A model generated the notes under the pieces. The model was not told the origin of the DNA and did not search any database. It saw only the letters and a list, made by a program, of their open reading frames with translations. From a virus (Duplodnaviria > Caudoviricetes), in the IMG/VR virus record IMGVR_UViG_3300048998_000202: a stretch of DNA of 64,000 nucleotides. One strand, given 5' to 3'. The position numbers and the translations under genes are program-made. Below are positions 1 through 52,392 of the stretch, piece by piece. The number at the start of each line of letters is the position of its first letter. Within the stretch, counting starts at the first letter, position 1.

Positions 1-116
1 CCACCCGGAGGTGATCCCCTTCTCCCTGCCGTGCCTTACCCGGCCCTGCCTAGCCATGCCACACCGCACCACGCCCCGCAGGTCTTGACGTTATCAAGAC
101 CCTTCGGAGCCGTCAA
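1..116 (-). ncRNA. GGY-NN pentamer guide-like RNA unit A with own promoter (3' end runs off the window)
   Basis: Minus strand: TTGACG-17 nt-TAACGT, then caagacc-tgcGG and 10 perfect GGY-NN pentamers (ggcgt ggtgc ggtgt ggcat ggcta ggcag ggccg ggtaa ggcac ggcag), then the start of a GC hairpin. Confidence 0.8.
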
Positions 117-120
117 TGAC

Positions 121-248
121 GAAGGGGCCCTCCGTAGAGGACCCCTTCTCCTATGCCAAACCTAGCCATACCCTACCCTGCCACGCCAAACCTAGCCAAG
201 CCATGCCCTGCAAGACTTGACTCTGTCAGCTCCTACGGCATCTGTCAA
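121..248 (-). ncRNA. GGY-NN pentamer guide-like RNA unit B
   Basis: TTGACA-17 nt-CAGAGT promoter, leader caagtcttgcAG, 11 perfect GGY-NN pentamers (207-153) and terminator hairpin GAAGGGGTCCTC-tacg-GAGGGCCCCTTC. Confidence 0.82.
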
Positions 249-253
249 CGACG

Positions 254-353
254 GAGGGGCCCCACCGTAGTGGAGCCCCTCTCCCATGCCCGGCCTTACC
301 CAGCCCTGCCTTGCCTCACCTCGGCCAGCCGTACCGAGACCTTGACTGTATCA
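254..353 (-). ncRNA. GGY-NN pentamer guide-like RNA unit C
   Basis: TGATACAGTCA box just after the stop codon of the 357-1226 gene, 10 pentamers (335-286, one variant gccga) and hairpin GAGGGGCTCCAC-tacg-GTGGGGCCCCTC. Confidence 0.78.
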
Positions 354-356
354 GGA

Positions 357-1226
357 TCAGTAGAACCGGGACCAGTACCGGGGCCGCGCCGCCACCGAGC
401 CCGCCATGCGGGTAGGCCCGTACCTGCCGTAGACGCCGCCCGAGATCAGGACGGCCGGGCGTCCGAGACCCATCTGGCTGATCTTGAAGACATCGAGCTG
501 GGACTTGGCGGCCTGCTCCTCCTCCATGAGGACGTCCCGCCAGCGCTGGACGTAGTCCCGGCGGTCCAGTCGGGAGACGTTGCCGGAGCCCTGGAACATG
601 GGCTGCTCGGTGTAGGAGCGGATCAGGTGCTTGAGGGTCTCGATCCAGGTCATGGCCTCCAGCAGCGGGCCCCACTGGGGATAGGGGAACTGCGCTCCCC
701 CGTCGCCGTCCACGGTGAAGGTCTGGAAGGGCTGCGCGATGGTGTTCATGCGCCCGAGCGCGATGCGCATCAGTTCGGCGATCCGGCCCCGGCCGAACTT
801 CGACTGGACGTAGGTCGTCAGGTTGGGGCCGCCACCTGGGGAGTCGATGGTGTCGGCGATGCGGACCATGACGCGCTCGATGATGTCTTTCATCGGGACC
901 ACCAGGCCGTCGTACGACGGGGCGGCCGGGCCGATCTCGATGCCGGACTCGTAGTACTCCTGCTGACCGGTCAGCAGGTATGTCCAGGCCAGGGTGTAGG
1001 AGCCCGGGACGGAGGTCTCCACGCTGTTGAAGGTCGCCGAGTAGTCGCCGGTCGCGTTGTGGGTGGCCAGCCGGGAGAAGATCTCGTTGCCGGTGTTCTC
1101 GGAGACCATGGTGAGGGTGACCCCGGCGTCGGCATCTATCGGGACCTGGTTCTGGAGGATCTTCAGTCCCACCACGTCCACGGCGTACTGCGATACGTAC
1201 TGCCGATCGTTCCAGTACAAGGCCAT
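357..1226 (-). CDS. virion structural protein, probable head-tail connector/neck
   Basis: 289-aa ORF with phage-like codon usage, in the late operon downstream of the capsid genes. Function inferred from position only. Confidence 0.55.
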   Translation of the reverse strand: MALYWNDRQYVSQYAVDVVGLKILQNQVPIDADAGVTLTMVSENTGNEIFSRLATHNATGDYSATFNSVETSVPGSYTLAWTYLLTGQQEYYESGIEIGPAAPSYDGLVVPMKDIIERVMVRIADTIDSPGGGPNLTTYVQSKFGRGRIAELMRIALGRMNTIAQPFQTFTVDGDGGAQFPYPQWGPLLEAMTWIETLKHLIRSYTEQPMFQGSGNVSRLDRRDYVQRWRDVLMEEEQAAKSQLDVFKISQMGLGRPAVLISGGVYGRYGPTRMAGSVAARPRYWSRFY

Positions 1227-1235
1227 GGTCGAGTC

Positions 1236-1889
1236 CTAGCGGTCGGTCGCGTTGACGAACATGGCCAGGATGCGGCTGGTGCTCAGCGTCATGGAAGAGC
1301 CGGTGGGCGAAGCGGTGATCTGGATGCCGACCGAGTGGGAGCCCGCGCTGATGTTGCGTACGCCCAGGACCGGGATGGTCGTGGACCAGTGACCGGTGCC
1401 GAAGGTGGAGTTGTCGGGCCAGTTGGTCAGGACGTACTCCGCCATGGTGGCGTCGAAGGCCGACACCGCGCCGTCGATCAGGATGCGGTTGGTACCGCCG
1501 ATGAAGCCCCGGGTGGGCAGGCTGAACTCGTTGGTACCGATGCACAGCAGGCTACCGGGCCGGTTCACGGTGAAAGTACCGATGGTGTAGCTGACGACGG
1601 TGTTGTGGTTGATGGTGGCGTTGGGCCGCAGAGCGCCCCACCACACGGCCGGGCCGTAGAGCATCTCGCGCCAGGTGGTGCCGTTCCACATCAGGGTACG
1701 GCGGGTGTCCGTCTCGATGATCTGCATGCCCGTCTGGCCCGCACCCCAGGACGGCCGGGTGGTGGACGTGCATATCCAGTCGCCCGTGTGCTGGTCCAGG
1801 ATGTTGAAGTTCTGGACGAAGTCGGTCCGCAGGAACGGGTCCGACCCGTCGGGGATCTTGATCCCCATGTGCTGGCTGGTGGTGGACAT
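1236..1889 (-). CDS. virion structural protein (minor tail/fiber-like)
   Basis: 217-aa ORF with N-terminal 'MGIKIPDGSDPF..NFNILD', typical of fiber attachment segments, and a beta-rich C-terminus. Preceded by the late promoter motif. Confidence 0.55.
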   Translation of the reverse strand: MSTTSQHMGIKIPDGSDPFLRTDFVQNFNILDQHTGDWICTSTTRPSWGAGQTGMQIIETDTRRTLMWNGTTWREMLYGPAVWWGALRPNATINHNTVVSYTIGTFTVNRPGSLLCIGTNEFSLPTRGFIGGTNRILIDGAVSAFDATMAEYVLTNWPDNSTFGTGHWSTTIPVLGVRNISAGSHSVGIQITASPTGSSMTLSTSRILAMFVNATDR

Positions 1890-2029
1890 CCGCTCCCGAT
1901 CCTCTCGTGGTGACCTTCACCCCTTCCGGGGCGACCTGCGGTAGCCGACAGGACCGGTCGGGGCGACTACCAATAGATGTGCGAGGAGCCCCGTACGTCA
2001 GGTTCGTACGGGGCTCCTCACGTCCGACA

Positions 2030-3415
2030 TCAGGAAACGGTGACGTTGCCCGACGCGGCGGAGGTGGTCGTGGAGACCGATCCCTGGGCCCCCACGGTGG
2101 CGGTGTCCACATGGCCGGTGGTCAGCGCGGTGAAGTCGTTGCTCAAGACGTTGCCCGCCACGGTGTGGACGGTGGTGTCCTGGCCTCCCAGGGTGACGAT
2201 GTAGTTGATCGGGGCGCCCGAGGACGGTGCGGACCACACGACGTGGATGGTGCCCGCCGACGGGCTGGTGACCGTCGGGGCCGCCGGGGCGGTGGGCTTG
2301 CCGAAGGCCGCCGAGGCACTGGAGGTGGCGTTGGCGACCGCGCCGTTGGAAGTGACCGTGGCCGTGATGGCGGTGGCGCTGGCGACTCCGGTGAAGGTGG
2401 TCGTCAGAGTCCCGGCGGCCACGGTCTTGGTCTGGCCGGACGACAGGGTCACCGTGTAGCTGAGCACGGTGCCGCCGGACGTCGGGGCGACCCAGGTGGC
2501 CACCACGCCGCCCACGGTGGCGTTGCCGGACAGGACGACGCTCGTGGGGGCGCCGGGGCGACCCTGGAGGCCGGAGCCCGACTTGATGGTGCCGTCGGCG
2601 CCGTAGATGGGGTTCTGGGCCCAGTAGGGGTCCAGGCCGCCGGGCTTGCCGACGTCCGGCTCATCCGGGTTGTACGGCGTCACGGAGGCCGAGGCGGTGC
2701 CCAGCGGGCCGTTGCCGTTGCGGTTCCGGGCCAGCACCTGGAAGGTGTACGCCTGGTCGGGGACCAGGTTCTGGACGGTGACGGTGGTGACGCCCCGGCC
2801 GGTGTAGGTGGTGCCGCCGGTCGAGCCGACCACCACGTATCCCAGGACGGGCGCGGTGGCATGCGGGTCGGCCACGGTGGCCCACGTGACGCTCGCCGTA
2901 CGGGCTCCGGCGGCCACGGTGGGGGTACCGGCGGGGGCGACCGGTACGAGGGCGCTGACGGGCCCGATGGCACCGATGTTGCCCGACTCCAGGGTGCCGC
3001 TGAGGTTCTGGGCGTAGTCGGTGCGCACCGATCCGTCGGAGATCGGGGTGTCGGTCCGAGTGGTGTCGGCGCCTCCTGCGGCGCCCACGAGGCCGACGGT
3101 GAGGGTCGGGGCCCGGTACGCCTGGGTGACTCCGGAGGTCTGGGGCCAGCCGATCATGCCGGTCTCGACGGTGCCCGCCAGCAGAGGCGGAGGGGTCGGG
3201 GTGTACGGGCCGTTGGTGGCGTTGGTCGCTGAGGTGTCCGGAGTGCCGGTCAGCGTGCCACCGGTCTGGACGTTGCTGCCGCCGCCGCCAGCGCCGGAGT
3301 TGGCGGTGTCGGTGTTGGACGCGCGGTCTTGGGTTCCACGGGGGGCAGCACCGGCATTTCCGGTCACACCCTCGGTGTCGATCTCCTGACCCGAGTATCC
3401 GGGCGGTGTGGTCAT
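2030..3415 (-). CDS. fibronectin type III repeat virion protein
   Basis: Three Fn3-like modules (e.g. VTWATV..VLGYVV..VQNLVPDQAYTFQVLARNRNGNGP; WVAPTSGGTVLSYTVT; WSAPSSGAPINYIVT). Confidence 0.8.
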   Translation of the reverse strand: MTTPPGYSGQEIDTEGVTGNAGAAPRGTQDRASNTDTANSGAGGGGSNVQTGGTLTGTPDTSATNATNGPYTPTPPPLLAGTVETGMIGWPQTSGVTQAYRAPTLTVGLVGAAGGADTTRTDTPISDGSVRTDYAQNLSGTLESGNIGAIGPVSALVPVAPAGTPTVAAGARTASVTWATVADPHATAPVLGYVVVGSTGGTTYTGRGVTTVTVQNLVPDQAYTFQVLARNRNGNGPLGTASASVTPYNPDEPDVGKPGGLDPYWAQNPIYGADGTIKSGSGLQGRPGAPTSVVLSGNATVGGVVATWVAPTSGGTVLSYTVTLSSGQTKTVAAGTLTTTFTGVASATAITATVTSNGAVANATSSASAAFGKPTAPAAPTVTSPSAGTIHVVWSAPSSGAPINYIVTLGGQDTTVHTVAGNVLSNDFTALTTGHVDTATVGAQGSVSTTTSAASGNVTVS

Positions 3416-3443
3416 GGTGCTGCTCCCTCGGGGACTCGGTGTA

Positions 3444-4064
3444 CTACTGCTTTGCGGCGGTGGAGGACGAGGTGGTCTTCTTCGCTGCGGTCTTCTTGGC
3501 GGGAGTCGCTTCGCGGCGCTCCTGGCCCTTCTGGGCGGCTACGGCCTCGTCCTGCGGGTTGGAGGCCCCGGCGATGACCTGCTGCCCGTAGGACTCGCTC
3601 TGGCCGCTGTCAGGGACCTGGGTGATTCCGGCGTCCACTCCGCTGGCGTCCCCCGCCACGTTGGGACTGCGGGGAGCGTCCGGGGCCGCCCCGGTGTCGT
3701 TCCCCGGCGCGATGATGTTCCCGCCGTGCTCGGGGACGCCGCCGTTTTCGACGGTCTGCTGCGGGAGGTTCTGGGCGACGGCGGTGGCCTCCTCGTGCTT
3801 GAGCAGGCCGCGCACCTCCTCCACGATGTCGGCGGTGCGCTCGCGCACGACGGCCTCCACCTTGGCCACGACCCGTTCCACATCACCGAAGATGCGAGTG
3901 GTGCCGGACACGCGCTCGTTGTGGCCGCCGCCGGTACCGGAGGTCTCCAGGGTGCCGGTCATGGCCGTAGGGTCCGGGATGTGATCGACGGATTCCTGGT
4001 AGCCAGTGGCCGCCGGGGAGTCCTCCGGGATCTCGGAGTTCTGGTTCTCAGGCTGTTCTGTCAT
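3444..4064 (-). CDS. hypothetical acidic/low-complexity late protein with Lys/Ala-rich tail
   Basis: 206-aa ORF with RBS, ending in PAKKTAAKKT. Confidence 0.6.
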   Translation of the reverse strand: MTEQPENQNSEIPEDSPAATGYQESVDHIPDPTAMTGTLETSGTGGGHNERVSGTTRIFGDVERVVAKVEAVVRERTADIVEEVRGLLKHEEATAVAQNLPQQTVENGGVPEHGGNIIAPGNDTGAAPDAPRSPNVAGDASGVDAGITQVPDSGQSESYGQQVIAGASNPQDEAVAAQKGQERREATPAKKTAAKKTTSSSTAAKQ

Positions 4065-4077
4065 GTGTCGCCCCTTC

Positions 4078-4614
4078 TCAGTCGCGCTCGCGGTTGCCGA
4101 TGTTCACTCGGACCCACTTGGTCTTGGCCTGCTCGCCCGTGGTGTCCACCTCCGGCACGTACTGAAGCGCGAGCCCCTTGTGGCGGGGGCACAGCGGGGG
4201 GATGTCCTTCAGCAGCTTCTCGGAGATGGCCACGGCTTCTTCACAGGTACCGATGCCCCGCGAATCCGGGCCGACGCAGAACGCGCTGACGGTGTCCCGG
4301 CTGGTCGGCTTCTCGATCGTTGCCTGGATGTTCTCCTTGGCCCCGTCCTGACGCCGACGGAAGGCGTCCACCTGACGGCTCAGAGCCTCGACCACCTCGG
4401 GGTCGGACTCCTCGTCCATCAGCTCCACGACGCCACGGGCCAGGGCGCGCTTGAACGCGACCGACTCCAGGACGGCTTCGGGGATGTACTGGATGTCGTC
4501 TCCGGAGGGGTCGCCGCTGGCGGCCCACTCCACGGAGTGGGTCCCCTTGACGTCCGAGGCGAGGACGGTGACGCCGTCCATCAGGTTGCGGGCAACGATC
4601 GAGCCGACAGGCAT
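4078..4614 (-). CDS. hypothetical late protein with C-terminal Cys/His (Zn) motif
   Basis: 178-aa ORF behind the late promoter motif at 4642-4676. Confidence 0.6.
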   Translation of the reverse strand: MPVGSIVARNLMDGVTVLASDVKGTHSVEWAASGDPSGDDIQYIPEAVLESVAFKRALARGVVELMDEESDPEVVEALSRQVDAFRRRQDGAKENIQATIEKPTSRDTVSAFCVGPDSRGIGTCEEAVAISEKLLKDIPPLCPRHKGLALQYVPEVDTTGEQAKTKWVRVNIGNRERD

Positions 4615-4855
4615 GAGGGTCTCCGTTCGTGAAGGTCTTCTCGTCCTTTACGCGGAGTCGTCACGGGTCCAACAGGAAAGGCCCCGGCCCGGGGGTACCG
4701 GGGCCAGGGCCTTTCGTGGACGATCGGCGCCACGACTCAGGTCCGTGGGGGACGGAAGGAATCGGCGCCGCCTCGTGCACGGGGAGCGTGGCACGGTGGG
4801 GTAGACGCTGTCAAGGCGAATGTGTTCCACTGGAGAGATGGAAGATCAGCACACG

Positions 4856-5077
4856 ATGCAGACAGACACCCCCACCGACGACCTGAAGCTGTACGGGATC
4901 TCCGAGCTGGCGGATCGCTGGAAGGTCTCTAAGCAGCGGGCTGACGAGATCGCCTCCAAGCGCCTCCCACAGCCCCTCACGCTCAAGATGGGCCGCATCT
5001 GGACAGAACTCCAGGTGGAGAACTTCGAGAGAGGGTGGGTCCGTAAGACGGGGCGTCACATCGTCCCCAGGACTTGA
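4856..5077 (+). CDS. small AlpA/excisionase-like HTH DNA-binding protein
   Basis: LYGISELADRWKVSKQRADEI...LPQP..LKMGRIW is an AlpA-like wHTH pattern. Start could be 4838. Lies directly upstream of the RNA array. Confidence 0.7.
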   Translation: MQTDTPTDDLKLYGISELADRWKVSKQRADEIASKRLPQPLTLKMGRIWTELQVENFERGWVRKTGRHIVPRT

Positions 5078-5163
5078 TATCGTCAGGGGTTACTGGGCTC
5101 GGCAGGGCTAGGTAGGGCAGGACTGGGCACGGCATGGGAGGGGCTTCCTACGGGGAGCCCCTC
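5075..5163 (+). ncRNA. GGY-NN guide-like RNA unit D
   Basis: TGATATCGTCA box, pentamers 5096-5135 (one variant gactg) and hairpin GAGGGGCTTCC-tacg-GGGAGCCCCTC. Confidence 0.75.
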
Positions 5164-5168
5164 AGCCG

Positions 5169-5262
5169 TTGACAGGCGCTCTTGGGAGTGACAGAGTCAG
5201 GTCTTGCAGGACCACACGTGGGCGTGTGGAGAAGGGGCGCTTCTTCCAGGAGGCGCCCCTTC
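5169..5262 (+). ncRNA. array unit E: same promoter/leader but hairpin body instead of pentamers
   Basis: TTGACA-17-CAGAGT, caggtcttgcag, hairpin CCACACG-tggg-CGTGTGG and terminator GAAGGGGCGC..GCGCCCCTTC. Confidence 0.6.
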
Positions 5263-5267
5263 GTCGT

Positions 5268-5422
5268 TTGACAGACCGGCACGGGGGTGACAAAGTCAGG
5301 TCTTGCATGATGGGAAGGACACACGGTTGGTTTCTGAGGCCGGAACCGTGTGGATGCGATCGGCCCTCAAGGCCGTGGACGCGTCCGAAGGCCCCCTCTG
5401 AAGATTCCTGGAGGGGGCCTTC
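5268..5422 (+). ncRNA. array unit F: same promoter/leader, two-hairpin structured RNA
   Basis: TTGACA-17-CAAAGT, caggtcttgca, stems CACACGGTT/AACCGTGTG and GGATGCG..CGGCC/GGCCG..CGCGTCC, then terminator GAAGGCCCCCTC/GAGGGGGCCTTC. Confidence 0.6.
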
Positions 5423-5428
5423 GTTCGT

Positions 5429-5557
5429 TTGACCGGACGACATTAGGGCTGACAGGGTCAGTTCTTACAGGGCACCGTCTGGTTGGGCACGGTAAGGCAT
5501 GGTGGGGTAAGGCACGGCTGGGCAGGGGAGGGCGACCATCTTCGGATGGTCGCCCTC
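5429..5557 (+). ncRNA. GGY-NN guide-like RNA unit G
   Basis: TTGACC-18-CAGGGT, 11 pentamers at 5471-5525 (one variant cgtct) and a UUCG-capped terminator. Confidence 0.8.
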
Positions 5558-5563
5558 AGCCGT

Positions 5564-5706
5564 TTGACAGGTGCGGGTGGAGCTGACAGAGTCAAGTCTT
5601 GCAGGGCCGGGCCCGGTAGGGCGTGGTTTGGCGTGGTGTGGTTGGGCAACGCATGGCATGGCATGGCAGGGGAAAGGCCCCAGGATTTTAAAATCCTGGG
5701 GCCTTT
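5564..5706 (+). ncRNA. GGY-NN guide-like RNA unit H
   Basis: TTGACA-17-CAGAGT, 13 pentamers at 5605-5669 (one variant cgcat) and terminator GAAAGGCCCCAGGATTTTAAAATCCTGGGGCCTTTC. Confidence 0.8.
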
Positions 5707-5708
5707 CG

Positions 5709-5841
5709 TTACGCCCTGAAGGAACTGATAGAGTCATGGTCTCGGCAGGCCGAGGCTAGGTAAGGCACGGCGGGGCAAGGCACCGCCCGGTAGGGCAAGG
5801 CATGGGGAAGGCCCCCTCGGATTCTCCCGAGGGGGCCTTCC
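5709..5841 (+). ncRNA. GGY-NN guide-like RNA unit I (decodes to major capsid gene motif)
   Basis: TGATAGAGTCA box, 12 pentamers at 5744-5803 (variants gccga, cgccc) and a terminator convergent with the capsid gene. Confidence 0.82.
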
Positions 5842-5866
5842 GTTGTCCTGAAGCGACTACTCTCCG

Positions 5867-6856
5867 TCACGCCTTGGTGATCGTCGCGATGCCCCTGGGG
5901 TTCAAAATGGACATATTGACCATTTCGTCAAATACCCATCCCTTCCAGAAGGCTTCGACCATGTGGTTCTCTTCCACGTCCAAACTGTACAGAACGGGGA
6001 AAACGCCCAAGAAGTTGGGCTCCGGGGTGAGGAAGACCTTGCCCTGCGGGACGATGATCGACCGCTGGATCTGGAACTCGCCGAACGAGGTGATGGTCTC
6101 GCCCGCGACGACCCGGTCCTTGAAGGCCCAGCCCGTCTGGTTGATGTCCCACCGGTACAGGTCCCGGAAGTCGAACGGGTTGATCAGGATCCGCGCCGAC
6201 TGGAGCTCGTGCATGTCCGTCATGGCGACGGCCGAGTACAGCGAGCCCGGCGTCAGGTAGCCCGACGCCTCGGTGATGTTGTGGTTCGGGGTGACCGTGT
6301 GGTCCGGGCGGGTGGCGTAGTCCGTCAGCGCCGCCTGGAGCAGTACGAGCAGCCGGGTGTCCTCCTGCTTGAGGATCGCCTGCTTGGTCTCGTCCTGGGC
6401 CTGCTCGACTGCGTTGATACGCAGGTAGAACAGGTCCTCCTTGCGGATCGCGGGGCGCGAGGCGATACGGAAGAACCGCACCGGAACGCGCTTGCCCTCG
6501 AACGGAGTCACACGGACTTCGCCCTCGGTGCCGGACATGATGTACGCCTGGCCCAGGTCGTCCCACACGTCGTACTCGACGGGGGTACCCGGGGTGACCG
6601 GGTCCTCCACGAGCACGTTGCGGGTGATGCCCTGGTAGCGGAGCTTGAGCTGGATGGGACCGACCATCCCGACGCCCAGACGGCGGATGCCGCCGGTCTC
6701 GTCGGAGAGGATCAGCGCCATCTTCTTGACCTTCGCCTCATGCGTGAGAGGCGCGGCCTTCTCCCGGCGGGCGAGGATCGCGGAGGCGTAGTCGTCGGAC
6801 TTCTTGGCCACACGGCCACGGAGCGACGAGGTTGCGGCGAGAGTCTGAGTCGGCAT
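5867..6856 (-). CDS. major capsid protein (HK97 fold)
   Basis: 329 aa with capsid-like sequence (GPIQLKLRYQGITRNVLVED, QAILKQEDTRL, C-terminal ILNPRGIATI). Follows scaffold and decoration genes. Confidence 0.85.
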   Translation of the reverse strand: MPTQTLAATSSLRGRVAKKSDDYASAILARREKAAPLTHEAKVKKMALILSDETGGIRRLGVGMVGPIQLKLRYQGITRNVLVEDPVTPGTPVEYDVWDDLGQAYIMSGTEGEVRVTPFEGKRVPVRFFRIASRPAIRKEDLFYLRINAVEQAQDETKQAILKQEDTRLLVLLQAALTDYATRPDHTVTPNHNITEASGYLTPGSLYSAVAMTDMHELQSARILINPFDFRDLYRWDINQTGWAFKDRVVAGETITSFGEFQIQRSIIVPQGKVFLTPEPNFLGVFPVLYSLDVEENHMVEAFWKGWVFDEMVNMSILNPRGIATITKA

Positions 6857-6866
6857 CAGTCAGCTC

Positions 6867-7391
6867 CTAGTACTTCTGACGAAGGCCACCGATGGTGATC
6901 TTCGTGGCGGAGTTGACCTTGAGGAGCCGGGCGACCGGCTGCACCGTCAGAGCGGTGACGACGCTGCCGTTGGTGGCCAGCGCGAGCTTCCCGCGACCGG
7001 TGCCGGTGGCGGCGCCGTAGATGAGCGTCTCGGTACCGTCACCCGGCTCGGTCCAGCTCTGGGTGGATTCGAAGGCCGGGGCGAGGATCTCGAACTCGGC
7101 GTCCGGGGCGAGCTTCCACACCGCGAAGGTGTTGATGCCCGACTCCAGTGGTTCGTCGATGCCGTCGCCACCCACGTACAGGGCGCCCAGGCCGTAGGGG
7201 ATGCTGCTGGTCGCGCCCACGAGAGACACGTTCTCCCCGGCGGTCTTCATGAAGACCATTCCCGGCCAGATCGGGACACTGCGGTCCCAAGCGGCGTCCA
7301 GGAAGCAGCTCGCGGGCGTGGATTGGGTCCAGCCGTAGAGCGGTCGGATCGTGCGCTTGATGTACGACGTTGCCATCTTCGTACGAAGCAC
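6867..7391 (-). CDS. capsid decoration/cement protein (putative)
   Basis: ~175-aa beta-rich ORF between scaffold and capsid genes. GTG start after GGGAGGGG. Confidence 0.6.
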   Translation of the reverse strand: MLRTKMATSYIKRTIRPLYGWTQSTPASCFLDAAWDRSVPIWPGMVFMKTAGENVSLVGATSSIPYGLGALYVGGDGIDEPLESGINTFAVWKLAPDAEFEILAPAFESTQSWTEPGDGTETLIYGAATGTGRGKLALATNGSVVTALTVQPVARLLKVNSATKITIGGLRQKY

Positions 7392-7584
7392 TACAACCCC
7401 TCCCATCTCATCTATTCGGACATATGGGCCGTCTGCTCGATGTCCGATACGAGACGGGCCCTTCTCACCCCTTTCGGGGGCTCAGACCGGGGAAGACAGG
7501 ATCAAGGGGGACGGAAACATGCCGCAGCCCCCTCCCGGGATGACGGGAGGGGGCTGACGGGAGCTAGTTGAAGAAGTCGGGGTC

Positions 7585-8493
7585 CTAGTCGAAGAGGGAC
7601 TCGGCGTCTTCGTCGGTCAGGCCCACCGCTCCGGCGACGGAGGTGATGGGCGCGGGCTGGGTCACCAGGGAGGGCATGGTGCGCTGGACACCCGGGGCGT
7701 TGGACGCGGCCCGGGGCACCAGGCCCTGCGGACGGGCCTGGCGTGCGGCGGCCTTGGTCACCTGCGACAGGGTGGCGATCTCGTGGCGGATCATCGCCTC
7801 GCTCATGTTCCGGTCGGACTCGATCGAGGCGGCCACCGCGAACTCGTCGCCTCGGGCCAGTCCGGCGGTGATGCGGTGGCGGGCCAGCCGCATGGAGGCC
7901 AGGGTCCGGTTGCGGGAGCCGGTCTGGCTCATCTCGCCCGAACGCGGCGGGGTGGTGCCCTGCTGCGCGGACGGTCCGAAAGCCGGGTTCAGCGGGTAGG
8001 CGGTCTCGGGGTTCATCGGGTCGCCCACGCGCACGTCGGTCTCGATGCGGGTGGTGTCCGGCGGGGTGTGGGTCTCGGTCCCGGCGACCGGCGCACTCAC
8101 GTTGAGGAGCTGATTGAACGGCGCGGTCGGCAGCGTGACGCCCGGGTCCATGGGGGTGGCGGTCGTCTCGGCCGCGACGCCCTGGTTGGCACCGGGGGTC
8201 TGCCCGATCTGGTTCGGGTTGTCGTACGCCTCCGGGGTGGCGGCCTGCTCGGTGGTCTCCACCGGGGCCTCGGAGGGCGGGTTGGGCACCGGCTGGGCAG
8301 GGTTGTCGATGTCGGCCTGACGCTTGATCGCGTCGACCTCCTTCGTGACACCGGCCAGCCGGGCGACGTAGGCGAGCTGGAGGCCCTGGATGGTGAGCTG
8401 GCGCTCCAGTTCGGTGTTGCGGGCCTCCACGGTGCGGAGGTTCTTCTGCTGGCTCGCCATGGCCTGCATGAGCGGGCGGTTGCCACTTGCCAT
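7585..8493 (-). CDS. scaffolding-like head protein
   Basis: N-terminal coiled coil, Pro-rich linker and acidic C-terminus (DEDAESLFD). Lies between protease and capsid genes. Confidence 0.6.
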   Translation of the reverse strand: MASGNRPLMQAMASQQKNLRTVEARNTELERQLTIQGLQLAYVARLAGVTKEVDAIKRQADIDNPAQPVPNPPSEAPVETTEQAATPEAYDNPNQIGQTPGANQGVAAETTATPMDPGVTLPTAPFNQLLNVSAPVAGTETHTPPDTTRIETDVRVGDPMNPETAYPLNPAFGPSAQQGTTPPRSGEMSQTGSRNRTLASMRLARHRITAGLARGDEFAVAASIESDRNMSEAMIRHEIATLSQVTKAAARQARPQGLVPRAASNAPGVQRTMPSLVTQPAPITSVAGAVGLTDEDAESLFD

Positions 8494-8571
8494 GAGATGT
8501 ACTTCCTCTGGTCGGGCTCGCGGCAAGCCGAGAGCTTTACGTCTTCACCCCTTACGGGGACTACTGGCAGA

Positions 8572-11500
8572 TCAGACAGGCATCGGCAGCGGCGTTTCGC
8601 CCTGCTCTTCGGCGGGGCTCATGAGCTGCCCCTGACCACAGTTGGGGCAGACGTCGCCCGCCTGGACTCCGTCGGGGGTGGCCTCTCCCGTCGGCGGCAG
8701 GATCGAGGTGTCCATGTCGACGCTCACCGGGTTGGTGGCGTCGGCCTGGAATCCGCACGCCGGACATTCGAGGTCCGGTACGCCATCGCCGGGGGTACCG
8801 GGGACTCCCTGGCCCGCGTCCGGGTTGGGGATCTGTCCGTCGGTGTCCAGGTCCTGAGGTCCGGCCGGGCCCTCGGGACCTGTCGGCTGGCCGGGTCCCT
8901 GGGGCGTGTCGGGCCCTGGGGTGAACGGCTGGCCGTCACTGCTGACCGCGTCGGCCGGGAGGGCCTGCGGTCCGATCGGCATTCCGTCGGGTCCGACCAT
9001 CATCTGCTGGCCGGGCTGCTGGAGCGGCTGTCCGTCGGGTCCGAGCATGGCCGGGTCGACTGGTGCCCCCAGCTCGTTCGGATCCTGCGGCTGGCCGTCC
9101 GGGCCGAGCGCGTTGGGATCCTGGGGCGAGTCTCCGCCCATCGGGTCGCCGCCCGGCTGTACCTCGGCCTGTACTTCACCGGGGAGTGTGCCGGGCTGCT
9201 GACCCTGGTCCGCAGCGTCGGGGTTGACGGGGTTGCCGTTCTCGTCCAGGGCCGCCGGGTCGGCCGGGTTTTCGACCGGCTGTCCGTCAGGTCCGATCTG
9301 ATTGGGGTTGGCCGGATCCTGGAACTCTGCGACGTCCTTCCGCAGGTCCATCTGTCGGGCCTTCTCCAGGTCGGGGTCCTGGAACATCTTGGGGGGTGCG
9401 ACGTAGCTGCACACCTGGCAGGTGGCGCCGTCGAAGGTGTCGCGGTCACCGCACACCGGGCAGGCGTCCTCGCGCAGGGTGTCCACGTCCTCGGGGGCCT
9501 TCGTCTCGCCGTAGGCCAGTTTGCGGCCCAGCAGGCGACGAGAATCCTCGGGGGGAGTAGCCCCCCGGCCCGTCTGGAGACCCTTGCCGTTCTCGGTGGC
9601 GAACGGGGAGTGCACCGGGGCTGGGTCGTAATGGGCCGCAGCGTGATCCAGCATGGCGGAGGCCACTCCTCGTCGCTTGAGGTTGTCGTCCACACCGATC
9701 CAGTTGATATGGCCAGCGGGCTTGACGTGCCAGGAGTCCGCGTGGCCATTCATGCCGCAGTGGTCGCAGTGCTGATCGGGCCGGAAGTCGTCAGGTCCCT
9801 TCTCGTCCCAGTACTCCTCGCGCTTCTTGGTCCACTCCAGCTTCCCGACCTGCTGCCTGTCGGGAGTGTGGGCGCGCAGCACGTGGTACTTGTAGTCCGG
9901 TCCACCGTGGTACGTGAAGTGCAGGCCCTCCGGCAGATCACCACTGGCCCCGGCCACATGGGAGTTCGCCGGGGGCTGGTGCAGGTCCGGATTGTGCTCG
10001 CGGCTGAGGTCCTGCCAGGTCTTGCGCTGGTTGCGCTGCACGGTGTTGCGGCCCTTCTGACCGCCTGAGGTGTCACCCTCGGCGTTCAGGCGCTGCCGGG
10101 CGAGCCAGGTGACGGCCTGCACCTCGTGCGGGGGCACTTCGCGGCCCTCACGGTCGGAGATGACCGCTGCGGCCTTGCGGTAGTGGTTGGCCACGACCTC
10201 GTAGTGCTTGCGGTTCTGCGAAGGGAAGCCCTTGACGTCGTCGGCGTTCAGACGGCGCCCGGCGGCGACGGACAGGGCATGACGATCCACGACGACCTTG
10301 TCCGAAGGCTCCTTGGGCTTTCCTGCCGCCGCGTCCTCAGGGCTCTGGGGCTTGTTACCGCCGTGCTCGATCAGGGAGGCGAAGTCCTGCGTCTTGGGCC
10401 CCTTGAGGGCTTCCTGGTGGTTCATGCCGTCCATGACCTTCTGGGCGGCGTTGGCGTGACTGCCCATCACCATGATGCCCTCGCCCTTGCCGACGGCCCG
10501 CTGCTCGTGGAAGGCCCGCGCGGCGTTGTGCTGGTTGGCCCACCAGCCCTGCTGCGGGGAGTAGGCGGAGAGGACGCCTGCGCCCTTGTGGGCGGCTTCG
10601 GCGTCGCTCTTGATGCGGGGATCCAGTTTGGCGATGGACTTGGCCACCAGGTGGGCGTCGGGGTACCAGCGTTTGCCCTGCGCCTTCTCCTCGCTGGTGG
10701 CCTGGTCCCAGTGGTCCACGACGTGGTGGTGGGACAGGCCCATCTCCTTGAACCACGGATGGTCCTCGGGTGGCGTGGCCGCCGCACCCTCGGCCATCAG
10801 ATCGGCCAGGGTGACGCGGGAGCCGGTGGCGGCAATCTGCCTCACCACGGAGTCCGGGATCTCCTCCGGAGTGGGGTACGACTTCGAACGCGCCCTGTGG
10901 GTGGTGACGAAGTGGCCGTCACCGTCCTGCTTGAGACCGACCTCGGCGAAACGCGGGTCCTTCTTGGCGGCCTCGAACATCCGGTCCTGGGCGTACCCGG
11001 AGCCCTCGGGAGTCTTCCCGGGGTCTTTGGCCTTGGGCGGCCAGTTGGTGGCGCGTGCCCCGTGATAGGGAGCCTTCTCGCCGTATTCATCCGGGGTGTC
11101 GGAGAGGGGGGACTTCGCCACGTAGGCGTGGATCTTCTTGATCCCTGCGGCCTTGGCCGCCTCGGTCCGGTGGTGGCCGTCGGCGACCTGGAAGACGCCG
11201 TGCCGGTGTACGAGGACGACCGGTGGCATCTGCTCGGGGTTGTCCCGGTACCCCTCGGCAGCGTGCTGGACGCGGTAGTCACCGGCCTCGTGGCGCTTGT
11301 GGTCGATGGCGCTCGGGCTGACCATCGCGTGATGGAAGGTCAGGTCATCGATCGAACGCTCGTTGGCGTCAGGGTCGTCGGGGGTGGAGTGGGCCAAGTT
11401 GCTGGCTGCCCATCCGATCATCTCCCCGTCGGCGTGCTCGGCCCGATCGCCGTGGATCTCGGGGTCCCCGTAGATCTCCGGGTGCCGCTCGCCTACCTCG

Positions 11501-12327
11501 TCCCAGGACAGGCCCCGCCCGGCAGTGGTGTTGATGGAGTCAAGACTTGCGGTACTCTGGATCTCGCTCGGCTCGGCTCGGATTGGCTTGGTTGGGCTTG
11601 GCACGGCAAGGTACGGCATGGCATGGGTGGCGGTCTCTCCGGAGGCCGCCACAGCCATTTTCATACCCCGGTCATCGATCCCGGTGAAAAACGCCGTCGG
11701 ATCCGCCGGGGGCTCCACCAGCAGCGAGTTCTCGAAAAACCGCAATCCGTAGCAGGTCTCACGGATGATCTCGCCGATCTTCTGCCCGGAAGCCGTCGTC
11801 CGGTAAAGCGTCATTCCCTTTGATCCAGGGATGTGGGCGCAGTATTCGGCAGGGGTAGTGGCCTTGTTGCCACAGGCGGAGCAGACGGAGAAGGCGACGT
11901 CGGTGCCCATGCTGGTTCTGGCGATGTTGCCGTTCATGATCTCGGCGGCCAGCTTGGGAAAGCGCAGCGCATCGACCTCTTGGAGGACCTCGACCCACCA
12001 GTCCCGGCTGCCGTCGCGGTTGCTGTCCTTGTGCAAAACCGCGTCGATGATCACACCACGGGCGCGCTTGTGATCTTCGTTCGCGTGATTGACGAAGACG
12101 GGCTTACCGATAAACGTCCGGTATCCCTTCTCCAGTTCCTCAGCGGGGAACTCGTCGAAGTTGTCGTTGCACCGGCTGGAGATGGCGCGGGAGCGCACGT
12201 ACAGGTAGCCGGGGCGCACCTCATACGAAAAGTGGTGCCGGTGGGCGAAGCGGCGCAGCTCACGGGCACCCGCGTCCGTGGGGACGAGGGCCTTGGTCAT
12301 GATCTGGGCGCTCGCGTACTTGAGCAT
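8572..12327 (-). CDS. multidomain head protein: prohead protease-like N-terminus + ParB/Srx-like + HhH-glycosylase-like + GNAT + Zn ribbons
   Basis: N-terminal GKPVFVNH..ARGVIIDA..TSMG..CSACGN..YCAHI..FFENSLLVEPPADPTA. ParB-like MPPVVLV..ADGHHR. WY..SAYSPQ..GPK..VVVDRHA..VQAVTW. GNAT RRGVASAML. Several CxxC pairs. Confidence 0.7.
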   Translation of the reverse strand: MLKYASAQIMTKALVPTDAGARELRRFAHRHHFSYEVRPGYLYVRSRAISSRCNDNFDEFPAEELEKGYRTFIGKPVFVNHANEDHKRARGVIIDAVLHKDSNRDGSRDWWVEVLQEVDALRFPKLAAEIMNGNIARTSMGTDVAFSVCSACGNKATTPAEYCAHIPGSKGMTLYRTTASGQKIGEIIRETCYGLRFFENSLLVEPPADPTAFFTGIDDRGMKMAVAASGETATHAMPYLAVPSPTKPIRAEPSEIQSTASLDSINTTAGRGLSWDEVGERHPEIYGDPEIHGDRAEHADGEMIGWAASNLAHSTPDDPDANERSIDDLTFHHAMVSPSAIDHKRHEAGDYRVQHAAEGYRDNPEQMPPVVLVHRHGVFQVADGHHRTEAAKAAGIKKIHAYVAKSPLSDTPDEYGEKAPYHGARATNWPPKAKDPGKTPEGSGYAQDRMFEAAKKDPRFAEVGLKQDGDGHFVTTHRARSKSYPTPEEIPDSVVRQIAATGSRVTLADLMAEGAAATPPEDHPWFKEMGLSHHHVVDHWDQATSEEKAQGKRWYPDAHLVAKSIAKLDPRIKSDAEAAHKGAGVLSAYSPQQGWWANQHNAARAFHEQRAVGKGEGIMVMGSHANAAQKVMDGMNHQEALKGPKTQDFASLIEHGGNKPQSPEDAAAGKPKEPSDKVVVDRHALSVAAGRRLNADDVKGFPSQNRKHYEVVANHYRKAAAVISDREGREVPPHEVQAVTWLARQRLNAEGDTSGGQKGRNTVQRNQRKTWQDLSREHNPDLHQPPANSHVAGASGDLPEGLHFTYHGGPDYKYHVLRAHTPDRQQVGKLEWTKKREEYWDEKGPDDFRPDQHCDHCGMNGHADSWHVKPAGHINWIGVDDNLKRRGVASAMLDHAAAHYDPAPVHSPFATENGKGLQTGRGATPPEDSRRLLGRKLAYGETKAPEDVDTLREDACPVCGDRDTFDGATCQVCSYVAPPKMFQDPDLEKARQMDLRKDVAEFQDPANPNQIGPDGQPVENPADPAALDENGNPVNPDAADQGQQPGTLPGEVQAEVQPGGDPMGGDSPQDPNALGPDGQPQDPNELGAPVDPAMLGPDGQPLQQPGQQMMVGPDGMPIGPQALPADAVSSDGQPFTPGPDTPQGPGQPTGPEGPAGPQDLDTDGQIPNPDAGQGVPGTPGDGVPDLECPACGFQADATNPVSVDMDTSILPPTGEATPDGVQAGDVCPNCGQGQLMSPAEEQGETPLPMPV
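11532..11652 (+). ncRNA. GGY-NN guide-like RNA unit J, antisense inside the protease gene
   Basis: TGATGGAGTCA box, leader caagacttgcgg, pentamers at 11570-11624 (one variant ggatt) and terminator GTGGCGGTCTC-tccg-GAGGCCGCCAC. Confidence 0.78.
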
Positions 12328-21791: not shown

Positions 21792-23186
21792 TCAACCCAC
21801 ACGACCGCCGACGTTGGCGTGACGGACCACGGTATTACTGGCGCTGGCCGCGCTCCACTGCCACGTGATCACCAGATCGTTCGAAATCGTGGTGTTGAAC
21901 GTTGACGTCGCCGTGGGAAAGATGATCTGGTTCGCCCCGATCGAGCCGACAACGGTCAGCGTCTGGTTCTGCCAGAAGGCATTCGTGCACGTGCCCGATC
22001 CCCCGGTCGTCAAGCATACGAAATCGGCCTCCGCGATCACGCCCTTGTTCGCCACGTTGGACGAAGTGACGGTCGGGCCCATCGTCGACAGAAGTGTCCC
22101 GGCGATTCCCCCCAGATACAGCCGCAGCGTGTAGGAGGGAGTACCCGTGACAGAACCCCGCAGCAACGTCCTCATGTGGTAGACGGCGCCTGCCGTCGCG
22201 TCGTTCGCAGGAATCGTCAACGTGGCCACCACCGTCTCCGTGATGGAGTTGCTGATGGTCTGCATCGACGCAGGAGACGGCACAGTGAACTGCCGGATCT
22301 GAGTGGCGAGGACCTTACTGTCCGTATCCAACGTGGCCACCCCGGAAGCGACCGCGAGCTGACTGGTGGGGACGGCATTGATATTCGCAGGAGTGACCGA
22401 AACAACGCCCTGCGACCCGTTGACCGACGTGACCCCAGCATGAACGTGATCACCCCGCGCCGCGCTGTTCGTCGCACCGGCCGCATTGGCCGACCCGATG
22501 GCCACGATGGTGCCGGTAGAGCTGTAGAGCTGCTGGGCGCCGTTGAGCTTGCTGGCGCCGTCCAGCCCCGGCACACCACCCGAAGCGTTCTTCGAGGCGC
22601 TCGCAATATACAGAGTGGTCAGATCCGGAATCTGCGACAGAGGGATCTTGGTACTGCCGTCCAGAGAGGCGACGCCACTGGCCGCCGCCTTCTGGGTCAC
22701 CGCCACGTACATACTGCTCAGGTCCGGAATCTGGGCAGTAGGCACCTTCGTGGAACCGTCCAGAGAGGCGACGCCGCTCGCTGCCGCCTTCTGGGTCGTC
22801 GCGATGTACGTCGCCGATAGATCCGGGATGCGGGCCGTGCCGAAGGTCCCCGAGGAGACCTGGGACGCCGGGAGGGGCGGCACCTGGGCCACGGGGACCA
22901 GCGTGCCGGAGTCCAGGGATGCCACCCCATTGGCCGCCGCCCGGGACGTCTTGGCGACATAAGTGGCATCGGTGAAGATCTGGTCCACCGCGCCGACGGT
23001 GCTCGCGTCCAGTTCGACGTTCCCGATCAGTCCGTTGACGGAGGTGACGCCCTCTACGATCGTCGAAGGCAGCTCCGAGGACGGGATCTTCCCGTCCGAT
23101 CCGAGACTGGCCACACCGCTCGCCGCACCGATCTGGGCGGAAGTAACGAAATCCGATGTGTCGTCCACCGTCAGGTGCTTAGGCAT
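21792..23186 (-). CDS. tail fiber/minor virion protein with internal repeats
   Basis: Repeats of KAAASGVASLDGSTK(V/I)P..QIPDL and GVTSVNG..G.V motifs. Confidence 0.75.
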   Translation of the reverse strand: MPKHLTVDDTSDFVTSAQIGAASGVASLGSDGKIPSSELPSTIVEGVTSVNGLIGNVELDASTVGAVDQIFTDATYVAKTSRAAANGVASLDSGTLVPVAQVPPLPASQVSSGTFGTARIPDLSATYIATTQKAAASGVASLDGSTKVPTAQIPDLSSMYVAVTQKAAASGVASLDGSTKIPLSQIPDLTTLYIASASKNASGGVPGLDGASKLNGAQQLYSSTGTIVAIGSANAAGATNSAARGDHVHAGVTSVNGSQGVVSVTPANINAVPTSQLAVASGVATLDTDSKVLATQIRQFTVPSPASMQTISNSITETVVATLTIPANDATAGAVYHMRTLLRGSVTGTPSYTLRLYLGGIAGTLLSTMGPTVTSSNVANKGVIAEADFVCLTTGGSGTCTNAFWQNQTLTVVGSIGANQIIFPTATSTFNTTISNDLVITWQWSAASASNTVVRHANVGGRVG

Positions 23187-42875: not shown

Positions 42876-42949
42876 TAGCGCGGACCAGATTCGAACTGGC
42901 GACCTGTGGGTTATGAGCCCACCGAGCTACCGAACTGCTCCACCGCGCG
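42876..42949 (-). tRNA. tRNA-fMet (CAT)
   Basis: Cloverleaf with anticodon loop CTCATAA, unpaired C1 and GGG/CCC in the anticodon stem. CTGACA-17-TATCGT promoter upstream. Confidence 0.92.
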
Positions 42950-50254: not shown

Positions 50255-50328
50255 CTCCTCCGGCAGGGTTCGAACCTGCGACCGTCGCCTTAACAGGGCG
50301 CTGCTCTGGCCAACTGAGCTACGGAGGA
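50255..50328 (-). tRNA. tRNA-Asn (GTT)
   Basis: Acceptor TCCTCCG/CGGAGGA, anticodon loop CTGTTAA and T-loop TTCGAAC. Confidence 0.92.
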
Positions 50329-52319: not shown

Positions 52320-52392
52320 TACCCCCGACCGGATTCGAACCGGCACCTCCGGATTGAGAATCCGACGGGACTGCCATTGCCTCCACAGGGGC
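52320..52392 (-). tRNA. tRNA-Glu (CTC)
   Basis: Anticodon loop TTCTCAA, T-arm GCCGG-TTCGAAT-CCGGT and acceptor GCCCCTG/CGGGGGT. Confidence 0.85.

What the first reader, a model, noticed from the sequence alone, without database searches (positions are those of the whole stretch)
1..11652. Programmable RNA-guide system: GGY-NN pentamer RNAs encode gapped, wobble-skipping targets
Seen: eight units (A-C at 1-353 minus; D, G, H, I at 5075-5841 plus; J at 11532-11652 plus) share one layout. Each has a TGAY-NNN-GTCA box on the -10 element (often with TTGACA 17-18 nt upstream), a short leader, 8-13 pentamers with constant GGY and free NN, and a terminator hairpin. The NN strings differ between units, like CRISPR spacers interleaved with the repeat. 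Read as NN-x-NN-x and reverse-complemented, they give codon positions 1-2 of sensible peptides in four of the eight units (see next findings). Inference: these are guides for an oligomeric RNA-binding protein that grips GGY and presents NN, skipping every third base so that wobble mutations cannot escape. From memory, unverified, this matches the recently reported VIPR RNAs with a Cas7/RAMP-like partner. Here each guide is its own transcription unit, scattered among virion genes.
Basis: partly seen in the sequence, partly recalled or inferred. Interest (0 to 1): 0.97.

Follow-up and report, generated by a model that had tools for sequence, protein, structure and literature searches.

The report
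Actinophage VIPR guide-RNA cassettes
The GGY-NN repeat units are guide-RNA genes of a VIPR system, a CRISPR-like phage silencing system first described in 2026 preprints, so this is a new example of a known kind; two guides appear aimed at the capsid and protease genes of sister phages.

Summary
Eight GGY-NN pentamer cassettes lie at the stated places; a 2nd-order Markov model of the window expects 0.05.

The units match the published VIPR guide RNAs (vrRNAs; bioRxiv 10.64898/2026.04.26.720920).

The partner gene lies just outside the window. On a contig that carries window gene 357-1226 exactly, a 192-aa protein sits about 220 nt beyond the left edge. It matches the solved SUSP1 Vipr structure (PDB 36pp, E=3.7e-35) and keeps the GGY-binding residues. 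A vap1-like gene follows it.

Each cassette reads as promoter, short leader, 8-13 pentamers and a GC hairpin that resembles a terminator.

Under the published one-base-skip rule:
- Guide I matches the major capsid gene of sister phages at 20-22 of 24 positions, and the phage's own copy at only 18.
- Guide J matches the protease-like gene of a relative at 18 of 18 (first nine units), and its own copy at 16.
- The core of guide C spells helicase motif III, RLYMTATP.
- Five guides have no target yet.

Skip lengths 0, 2 and 3 and shuffled guides give nothing comparable.

Expression is untested. This scan has found VIPR on other DNA more than 200 times. Verdict: a new member of a known kind, of modest interest.

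The parts
247..353 (-). vrRNA cassette A: box 353-343 (TGATACAGTCA), pentamers 335-286, hairpin tail to about 247
120..228 (-). vrRNA cassette B: box 228-218 with TTGACA upstream, 11 pentamers 207-153, hairpin tail
1..96 (-). vrRNA cassette C: box 96-86, pentamers 80-26, tail runs over the left edge. The guide core GG GT GC GT AT TA AG CG is shared with guides of two related phages. It spells the antisense of helicase motif III, RLYMTATP.
5075..5172 (+). vrRNA cassette D: box 5075-5085, 8 pentamers 5096-5135, hairpin tail
5189..5270 (+). Cassette E: same promoter, leader and tail, but a CACACG/CGTGTG hairpin in place of pentamers. Function unknown.
5288..5432 (+). Cassette F: same promoter and terminator, two internal hairpins, no pentamers. 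Function unknown.
5450..5568 (+). vrRNA cassette G: box 5450-5460, 11 guide units within the 13-unit run 5471-5535, hairpin tail
5584..5712 (+). vrRNA cassette H: box 5584-5594, 13 pentamers 5605-5669, hairpin tail
5726..5846 (+). vrRNA cassette I: box 5726-5736, 12 pentamers 5744-5803, hairpin tail. It ends about 20 nt from the stop of the major capsid gene, which runs towards it.
11532..11665 (+). vrRNA cassette J: box 11532-11542 with no -35, long leader, 11 pentamers 11570-11624, hairpin. It lies antisense and in frame inside the linker of the 1251-aa ORF.
5982..6016 (+). The phage's own copy of the guide-I site in its capsid gene (peptide NFLGVFPVLYSL): 18 of 24, the poorest match among 12 relatives
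12074..12105 (+). The phage's own copy of the guide-J site in the protease-like domain (VFVNHANED): 17 of 22, or 16 of 18 over the first nine units
5867..6856 (-). Major capsid protein gene (329 aa)
8572..12327 (-). 1251-aa structural polyprotein-like ORF (phrog_2774; protease-like domain at aa 57-206) that hosts cassette J
4820..5077 (+). 85-aa ORF whose stop codon lies in the box of cassette D. It is conserved just upstream of the guide arrays in relatives. A possible regulator, but no family match.
357..1226 (-). 289-aa structural gene (phrog_2791). This anchor links the window to the vipr-vap operon beyond the left edge.

Best explanation
The eight pentamer units are vrRNA genes of a type II-like VIPR system carried by a large (estimated 150 kb or more) actinobacterial myophage.

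The vipr gene (192 aa) and a vap1-like gene (196 aa) lie just beyond the window's left edge. They sit downstream of cassettes A-C and a fourth cassette.

Each cassette looks like a transcription unit of its own: a promoter whose -10 lies in the TGAY-NNN-GTCA box, a short leader, 8-13 GGY-NN units, and a GC hairpin with a U-run. The hairpin would serve both as the 3' tail and as the terminator.

By analogy with the published SUSP1 system, one Vipr protomer binds each repeat, hides GGY and presents NN. The filament pairs NN with double-stranded DNA while skipping every third base, and so blocks transcription.

Inferred from matches found here:
- Guides I and J are aimed at conserved motifs of the capsid and protease-like genes of sister phages. 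The phage's own copies differ at the letters the guides read.
- Guide C, the only one shared with relatives, is aimed at motif III of an SF2 DEAH helicase. That family includes Type ISP restriction enzymes and helicases of actinomycete plasmids.
- Guides A, B, D, G and H have no known target.
For: Shown here:
- The arrays are far beyond chance.
- P0128 lies about 580 nt downstream of the gene for the window's 289-aa protein (exact match) on one Logan contig. JGI contig L001 equals window 1-1782 with 0 mismatches. L014, from the same metagenome, carries vipr and vap.
- P0128 aligns over its whole length with PDB 36pp 'SUSP1 Vipr protein' at E=3.7e-35. H17, K33, R138, D177 and R179 are conserved, and W178 is Y.
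- Vap shares weak similarity with the DNA-binding protein next to vipr in Gordonia phage MakoManhole (E=2e-6) and a GYR(V/I) motif with the wV8 neighbour.
- Relatives carry the same parts.

Skip rule:
- Guide I scores 20-22 of 24 in relatives' capsid genes at skip 1 only. Shuffled guides reach at most 19, and skips 0, 2 and 3 at most 17.
- Guide J scores 18 of 18 over its first nine units in L249 and 17 of 18 in G006.
- The guide C core gives 66 of 70 IMG/VR hits in RLYMTATP. It scores 18-19 of 22 on Streptomyces plasmid helicases.

Established knowledge: the mechanism comes from bioRxiv 10.64898/2026.04.26.720920 and .720927.
Against:
- The vipr gene is outside the window. It is linked through metagenome contigs that are identical over the overlap, not through the window's own assembly.
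- The tail is a plain hairpin, not the SUSP1 pseudoknot.
- Five guides have no match in 0.5 Mb of relatives, nor in exact scans of IMG/VR for three of them.
- Guide J alone is not above shuffled guides within the relatives held (17-18 against a maximum of 17-18).
- Guide I also matches a PD-(D/E)XK nuclease motif (SDYKTGKTPRKM) at 24 of 24 in 45% GC viral contigs, so its true target is ambiguous.
- Full-length guides I and C have no exact match in 596 Gb of reference genomes.
- The phage's own capsid site differs by Leu/Ser codon-family switches, but these are common across the whole gene (p=0.14).
Confidence: 0.9

Rival explanations
1. Self-regulation. Guides I and J act on the phage's own capsid and protease-like genes, which they adjoin, for example to delay late gene expression. 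They would not be aimed at relatives.
For: The best in-window matches of I and J are the phage's own genes, 180 and 450 nt from the guide genes. Over the first nine units, J matches its own gene at 16 of 18. If the first two units of I are locked in the 5' hairpin seen, the own-gene match rises to 17 of 20.
Against: The own copies are the poorer matches: 18 of 24 against 20-22, and 16 of 18 against 17-18. The published surveys found no self-targets at 80% or more. Published guides aimed at relatives show the same pattern of lower self-scores.
Confidence: 0.1
2. Guide I is aimed at a PD-(D/E)XK (Cas4/RecB-like) nuclease gene of unrelated phages, read in sense as SDYKTGKTPRKM. The capsid match would be an accident of antisense codon compatibility.
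For: 24 of 24 in at least two sequence variants of 43-45% GC viral contigs, inside a PF12705 nuclease gene. DYKTGK is the conserved core of the nuclease hits.
Against: - Those contigs have 43-45% GC, against 66% here, and show no link to this phage's habitat or host.
- No high-GC nuclease gene matched, and there is no exact hit in reference genomes.
- The scan itself fixed the central 18 letters, so only 6 letters were free.
- The capsid match is independently significant (about 2e-4 by a random-sequence estimate of my own over roughly 1e6 sites, not a tool output) and lies next to the guide.
Confidence: 0.25
3. The pentamer RNAs are not VIPR guides but another class of GG-rich small RNA, such as protein sponges, or DNA-level repeats.
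For: No transcript or binding data exist for this phage. Cassettes E and F show that the same promoter-terminator frame can carry non-guide RNAs.
Against: - A Vipr homologue with conserved GGY-contact residues is encoded beside the array.
- The same pairing recurs in relatives.
- A complete relative without vipr has no arrays.
- Matches appear only at skip 1.
Confidence: 0.03

Closest known systems
Type II VIPR of Escherichia phage SUSP1 and the Pseudomonas fulva prophage (bioRxiv 10.64898/2026.04.26.720920, .720927)
   Same: - Vipr protein of about 190-200 aa, alignable end to end (36% identity to Felixounavirus homologues in tblastn), with the GGY-contact residues kept.
- A small vap1-like neighbour.
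- vrRNAs of GGY-NN repeats with a structured 3' tail, placed both upstream and downstream of the genes.
- Matches follow the one-base skip, with the skipped base on the codon wobble position.
   Different: - High-GC actinophage host range.
- The tail is a sequence-variable GC hairpin with a U-run that resembles an intrinsic terminator, not the conserved pseudoknot.
- Every guide seems to have its own promoter.
- Twelve or so cassettes are spread over three places up to 11.5 kb apart.
- One cassette lies inside a coding frame.
- Two cassettes lack pentamers.
Solo vrRNAs of F5 satellites and VIPR-null SUSP1-family phages (bioRxiv 10.64898/2026.10.15.759431)
   Same: Guide genes lie away from vipr. 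The guides are aimed at close relatives, with lower scores on the phage's own genome.
   Different: This genome is VIPR-positive. The apparent targets are virion genes (capsid, protease-like), not vipr, vrRNAs or satellite genes.
Class 1 CRISPR-Cas crRNA with Cas7 backbone
   Same: A RAMP-fold protein polymerises on a guide RNA, and a thumb flips bases out at regular intervals.
   Different: There are no repeat-spacer array, no cas genes and no adaptation module. The guide is read two letters in five, and the target two in three.
VIPR locus of Gordonia phage MakoManhole (PQ184807), gp78 and gp77
   Same: Nearest Vipr in an isolated phage (54% identity), with a DNA-binding neighbour and GGY-NN arrays on both sides.
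   Different: Its arrays are flanked by a tRNA-like element rather than by a promoter box and hairpin terminator. It is a 61 kb phage unrelated in its virion genes.

Membership tests
VIPR system (type II-like) | Vipr protein: a small RAMP with RRM core, G-loop and thumb | tested here: met
   P0128 against PDB 36pp_D gives E=3.7e-35 over residues 4-188. H17, K33, R138, D177 and R179 are conserved, and W178 is Y. The gene lies outside the window, on a contig that carries the window's 289-aa protein exactly.
VIPR system (type II-like) | vrRNA with 9-16 tandem GGY/NN repeats, GGY conserved and NN hypervariable | tested here: met
   Eight tracts of 8-13 units, against 0.05 expected by chance. NN strings are unique except for the guide C family.
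VIPR system (type II-like) | Structured 3' tail after the repeats (a pseudoknot in the SUSP1 clade) | tested here: inconclusive
   All units end with GGCA(T/G), GGGAG-like letters and a stable hairpin whose stem sequence differs in every unit. No conserved loop that could form a pseudoknot was seen by eye.
VIPR system (type II-like) | Accessory vap gene next to vipr, DNA-binding in type II | tested here: met
   A 196-aa gene starts 44 nt after vipr (L014 736-1326). It has a coiled-coil C-terminus and no Pfam family. It shows weak homology to MakoManhole gp77 'DNA binding protein' (E=2e-6) and shares a motif with the wV8 neighbour.
VIPR system (type II-like) | Targets follow the one-base skip rule | tested here: met
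   Guides I and J exceed or equal shuffled controls only at skip 1. The skipped base falls on the codon's third position. Five guides remain without a target.
VIPR system (type II-like) | vrRNAs are expressed as about 100-nt RNAs and co-purify with Vipr | not testable with these tools
VIPR system (type II-like) | Type assignment by Vipr phylogeny among the seven published types | not tested
   No sequences of types I and III-VII were to hand. 'Type II-like' rests on similarity to SUSP1 Vipr and on the vap1-like partner.
CRISPR-Cas | Repeat-spacer array with cas genes | tested here: not met
   TRF and Rfam find no CRISPR repeats in the window. The protein-family scans covered only ten ORFs of the first 14 kb and named no cas gene there.

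The most novel reading that the evidence does not exclude
The guides form kin-directed 'poison and antidote' modules. Guide I sits beside the phage's own capsid gene, and guide J sits inside its own protease-like gene. Each is aimed at the allele that sister phages carry, while the linked own allele differs at the letters the guide reads. Recombinants would then inherit weapon and immunity together.

A second arm would be guide C, kept in three relatives while all other guides turn over. It would silence an SF2 helicase of a host restriction system or of a resident linear plasmid.
Probability: 0.25. Interest if true: 0.6.

Novelty: new member of a known kind. Interest (0 to 1): 0.33.

Why it matters
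The finding extends VIPR, so far studied in E. coli and Pseudomonas phages, to a family of large high-GC actinophages. It also gives concrete, testable guide-target pairs.

If guides I and J do silence the virion genes of sister phages, VIPR would act in direct competition between close relatives that co-infect a host. Self-protection would then come from differences, several of them synonymous, in the letters that the guides read.

The compact promoter-guide-terminator cassette is a simple natural format for expressing single guides. That includes one cassette tolerated inside a reading frame.

None of this changes the known mechanism.

Tried and rejected
- No near-identical phage in GenBank, and no whole genome is held for the window.
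- The simple sigma-70 and terminator scan is not suited to this genome and found nothing useful.
- Rfam has no family for the units or for E and F.
- Exact one-base-skip scans of IMG/VR found nothing for guides H and G. For guide B they found only AT-rich chance hits.
- Full-length guides I and C have no exact match in the reference genomes.
- No guide other than I, J and C scored above shuffled guides on the window, on three fully fetched relative contigs (one of them a complete genome) plus five shorter loci, on a 135 kb high-GC phage, or on about 1 Mb of other fetched loci.
- I tested whether the guide-I site in the capsid gene is enriched for Leu/Ser codon-family switches. It is not (4 of 4 against 21 of 36, p=0.14).
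- I tested whether the helicase and nuclease motifs belong to one protein. They do not (0 of 58).
- Two further 15-of-16 matches of relatives' guides were left as unassessed.
- Host genus could not be set. The nearest isolated phages infect Mycobacterium, Gordonia and Rhodococcus, at only 60% capsid identity.


Full report
**What is there.** The window is 66% GC phage DNA. Reading the named stretches and a register-aware scan of both strands confirm eight tracts of GGY-NN pentamers:
- minus strand: 335-286, 207-153, 75-26
- plus strand: 5096-5135, 5471-5535, 5605-5669, 5744-5803, 11570-11624

Runs of five or more perfect GGY units occur 8 times, the longest being 11. In 100 second-order Markov surrogates the mean was 0.05 and no run exceeded 5.

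Each tract is preceded by TGAY-NNN-GTCA. It is followed by GGCA(T/G), a GGGAG-like stretch, and a perfect 11-16 bp GC hairpin with a U-rich run. The hairpin sequence differs in every unit.

- Units B, C, E, F, G and H have TTGAC(A/G/C) 14-15 nt before the box.
- Units A, D, I and J lack it, and all four have a TGAT-type box. A, D and I read TGnTAnnGT, an extended -10; J reads TGATGGAGT.

This pattern is coherent for real promoters, but it is inference from sequence.

The box itself is a genome-wide motif: 35 matches against 3.75 expected, including 12 sites that are not guides.

Two units, E and F, share the frame but carry hairpins in place of pentamers. Rfam knows none of these RNAs.

**What it is.** VIPR systems were described in 2026 preprints. 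They consist of a small RAMP protein, Vipr, and vrRNAs of 9-16 GGY/NN repeats with a structured 3' tail. One protomer binds each repeat, GGY is hidden and NN is presented. Double-stranded DNA is read while every third base is skipped, and the result is transcriptional silencing.

The window itself encodes no Vipr, but its genome does.
- The 289-aa product of 357-1226 (P0001) is found letter for letter on a 9.2 kb Logan contig. There it is followed, after about 580 nt, by a 192-aa gene (P0128), a 196-aa gene and a 587-aa gene.
- JGI contig L001 is identical to window 1-1782. It runs 75 nt further and shows the start of a fourth cassette.
- L014, from the same metagenome, shows the end of that cassette, a promoter, vipr and vap.
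- P0128 aligns over its full length with the solved SUSP1 Vipr (PDB 36pp, E=3.7e-35). The residues that the structure paper names as GGY and skip-base contacts are H17, K33, R138, D177, W178 and R179. All are conserved except W178, which is Y here.
- The neighbour has a coiled-coil C-terminus and belongs to no Pfam family. It shows weak homology to the DNA-binding protein beside vipr in Gordonia phage MakoManhole, and it shares a GYR(V/I) motif with the SUSP1-type neighbour in phage wV8.

I therefore file the locus as a type II-like VIPR system. The type itself was not tested on the published tree.

**Relatives.** The virion genes place the phage among large actinobacterial myophages. Its capsid protein is 60% identical to those of Mycobacterium phage Myrna, Rhodococcus phage Finch and Gordonia phage Skog. 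Closer relatives exist only in metagenomes.
- Several carry vipr, vap and guide cassettes of the same design. L012 has 12 cassettes in 20 kb. G001 has vipr and vap inside the island beside the capsid gene.
- G005, a complete 166 kb relative, has neither vipr nor any array. This ties the arrays to the protein.
- Guides turn over fast. Among 38 guides from seven genomes (the window's phage counted once), only the guide C family is shared.

**Targets.** I scored every guide as NN-x-NN on both strands, with shuffled guides and skips 0, 2 and 3 as controls.

*Guide I* gives 20-22 of 24 in the capsid genes of relatives, at the peptide NFLGVFPVLYSL, with the skipped base on the wobble position. Shuffled guides reach 19 at most and other skips 17 at most.
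- The phage's own allele, 180 nt from the guide gene, scores 18. This is the lowest of twelve relatives.
- Five of its six mismatched letters fall in Leu (CTN/TTR) and Ser (TCN/AGY) codon-family switches.
- Such switches are common across the whole gene (p=0.14), so there is no proof of selection at this site.

*Guide J* lies antisense in the linker of the 1251-aa ORF. It sits where relatives have a linker of variable length and no cassette. It fits the motif VFVNHxNED of that same gene.
- It scores 16 of 18 on its own copy, 17 of 18 in G006, and 18 of 18 in a 69% GC relative, L249.
- The last one or two units of every guide are GGCA(T/G) and never match. They may belong to the tail.

*Guide C*'s core gave 70 exact hits in IMG/VR, and 66 of them fall in one motif, RLYMTATP. 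This is motif III of Type ISP restriction-modification enzymes. The same motif occurs in DEAD/DEAH 'helicase associated domain' helicases, which are very common on Streptomyces, Kitasatospora and Micromonospora plasmids (419 of 755 plasmid records). On these the window's guide scores 18 of 22 and its L012 counterpart 19 of 22.

**Caveats on targets.**
- Guide I also reads in sense as SDYKTGKTPRKM. It matches a PD-(D/E)XK nuclease gene at 24 of 24 in 43-45% GC viral contigs. I favour the capsid reading because of habitat, GC content and adjacency, but I cannot exclude the other.
- Matches to widely conserved motifs can arise without being the selected target. An earlier claim of this kind in this scan partly fell.
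- Guides A, B, D, G and H have no target.
- Full-length guides I and C have no exact match in the reference genomes.

**Verdict.** VIPR is in print, and this scan has already met it in more than 160 genomes. One earlier case was a solo guide beside the phage's own altered copy of its target. This is therefore a new member of a known kind.

The points that go beyond the preprints' main text are:
- the self-contained promoter-guide-terminator cassettes
- a cassette nested in a reading frame
- the two non-guide cassettes
- the apparent aiming of guides at the virion genes of sister phages

All of these need RNA and binding data, which the tools could not supply.

Noticed in passing
window 5189-5270 and 5288-5432 (+): Two cassettes (E, F) have the guide-type promoter, leader and terminator but hold hairpins that share a CACACG/CGTGTG stem in place of pentamers. 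Relatives share only their promoter and terminator parts. A similar box followed by a non-pentamer RNA comes after vap at L014 1326-1430.
   Followed up: partly
window 42253, 51000, 51486, 52780, 54781, 56344, 61401 (box positions): A conserved promoter sits upstream of minus-strand genes: TTGAC, an inverted repeat ctccaaggattccttggag, then TAGTGT. It is followed at once by the palindrome TGAC-NNN-GTCA. The vipr gene in L014 has the same promoter without the palindrome. The palindrome could be an operator shared by the guides and these genes.
   Followed up: partly
window 4820-5077 (+): An 85-aa ORF with a helix-turn-helix-like stretch (WKVSKQR) ends inside the box of cassette D. It is conserved just upstream of the guide arrays in L012, G001, G002 and L007. 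It matches no family.
   Followed up: partly
L148 (Gordonia phage MakoManhole) 1650-1693 and about 3000-3050: In this isolated actinophage the GGY-NN arrays beside vipr are flanked by a tRNA-like T-arm element (GGTTCGACTCC). This suggests processing by tRNA enzymes rather than separate promoters.
   Followed up: no
G005 (IMGVR_UViG_3300036780_000209, 166498 nt): A complete sister phage (89% capsid identity) has neither vipr nor any GGY-NN array. It would be a natural VIPR-null comparator and a possible victim (guide I scores 20 of 24).
   Followed up: partly
window 42876-42949, 50255-50328, 52320-52392 (-): Three tRNA genes lie among the minus-strand genes.
   Followed up: no
L277 (Streptomyces mirabilis plasmid pI): On this linear plasmid the helicase that carries the motif read by the guide C family (here RLYLTATP) lies directly after the terminal protein gene tpgA1. 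It is therefore a telomere-associated helicase of a linear replicon.
   Followed up: no
window 22619-22826: A 99-nt tandem repeat, 2.1 copies at 77% identity, lies inside a 464-aa minus-strand ORF (21792-23186).
   Followed up: no
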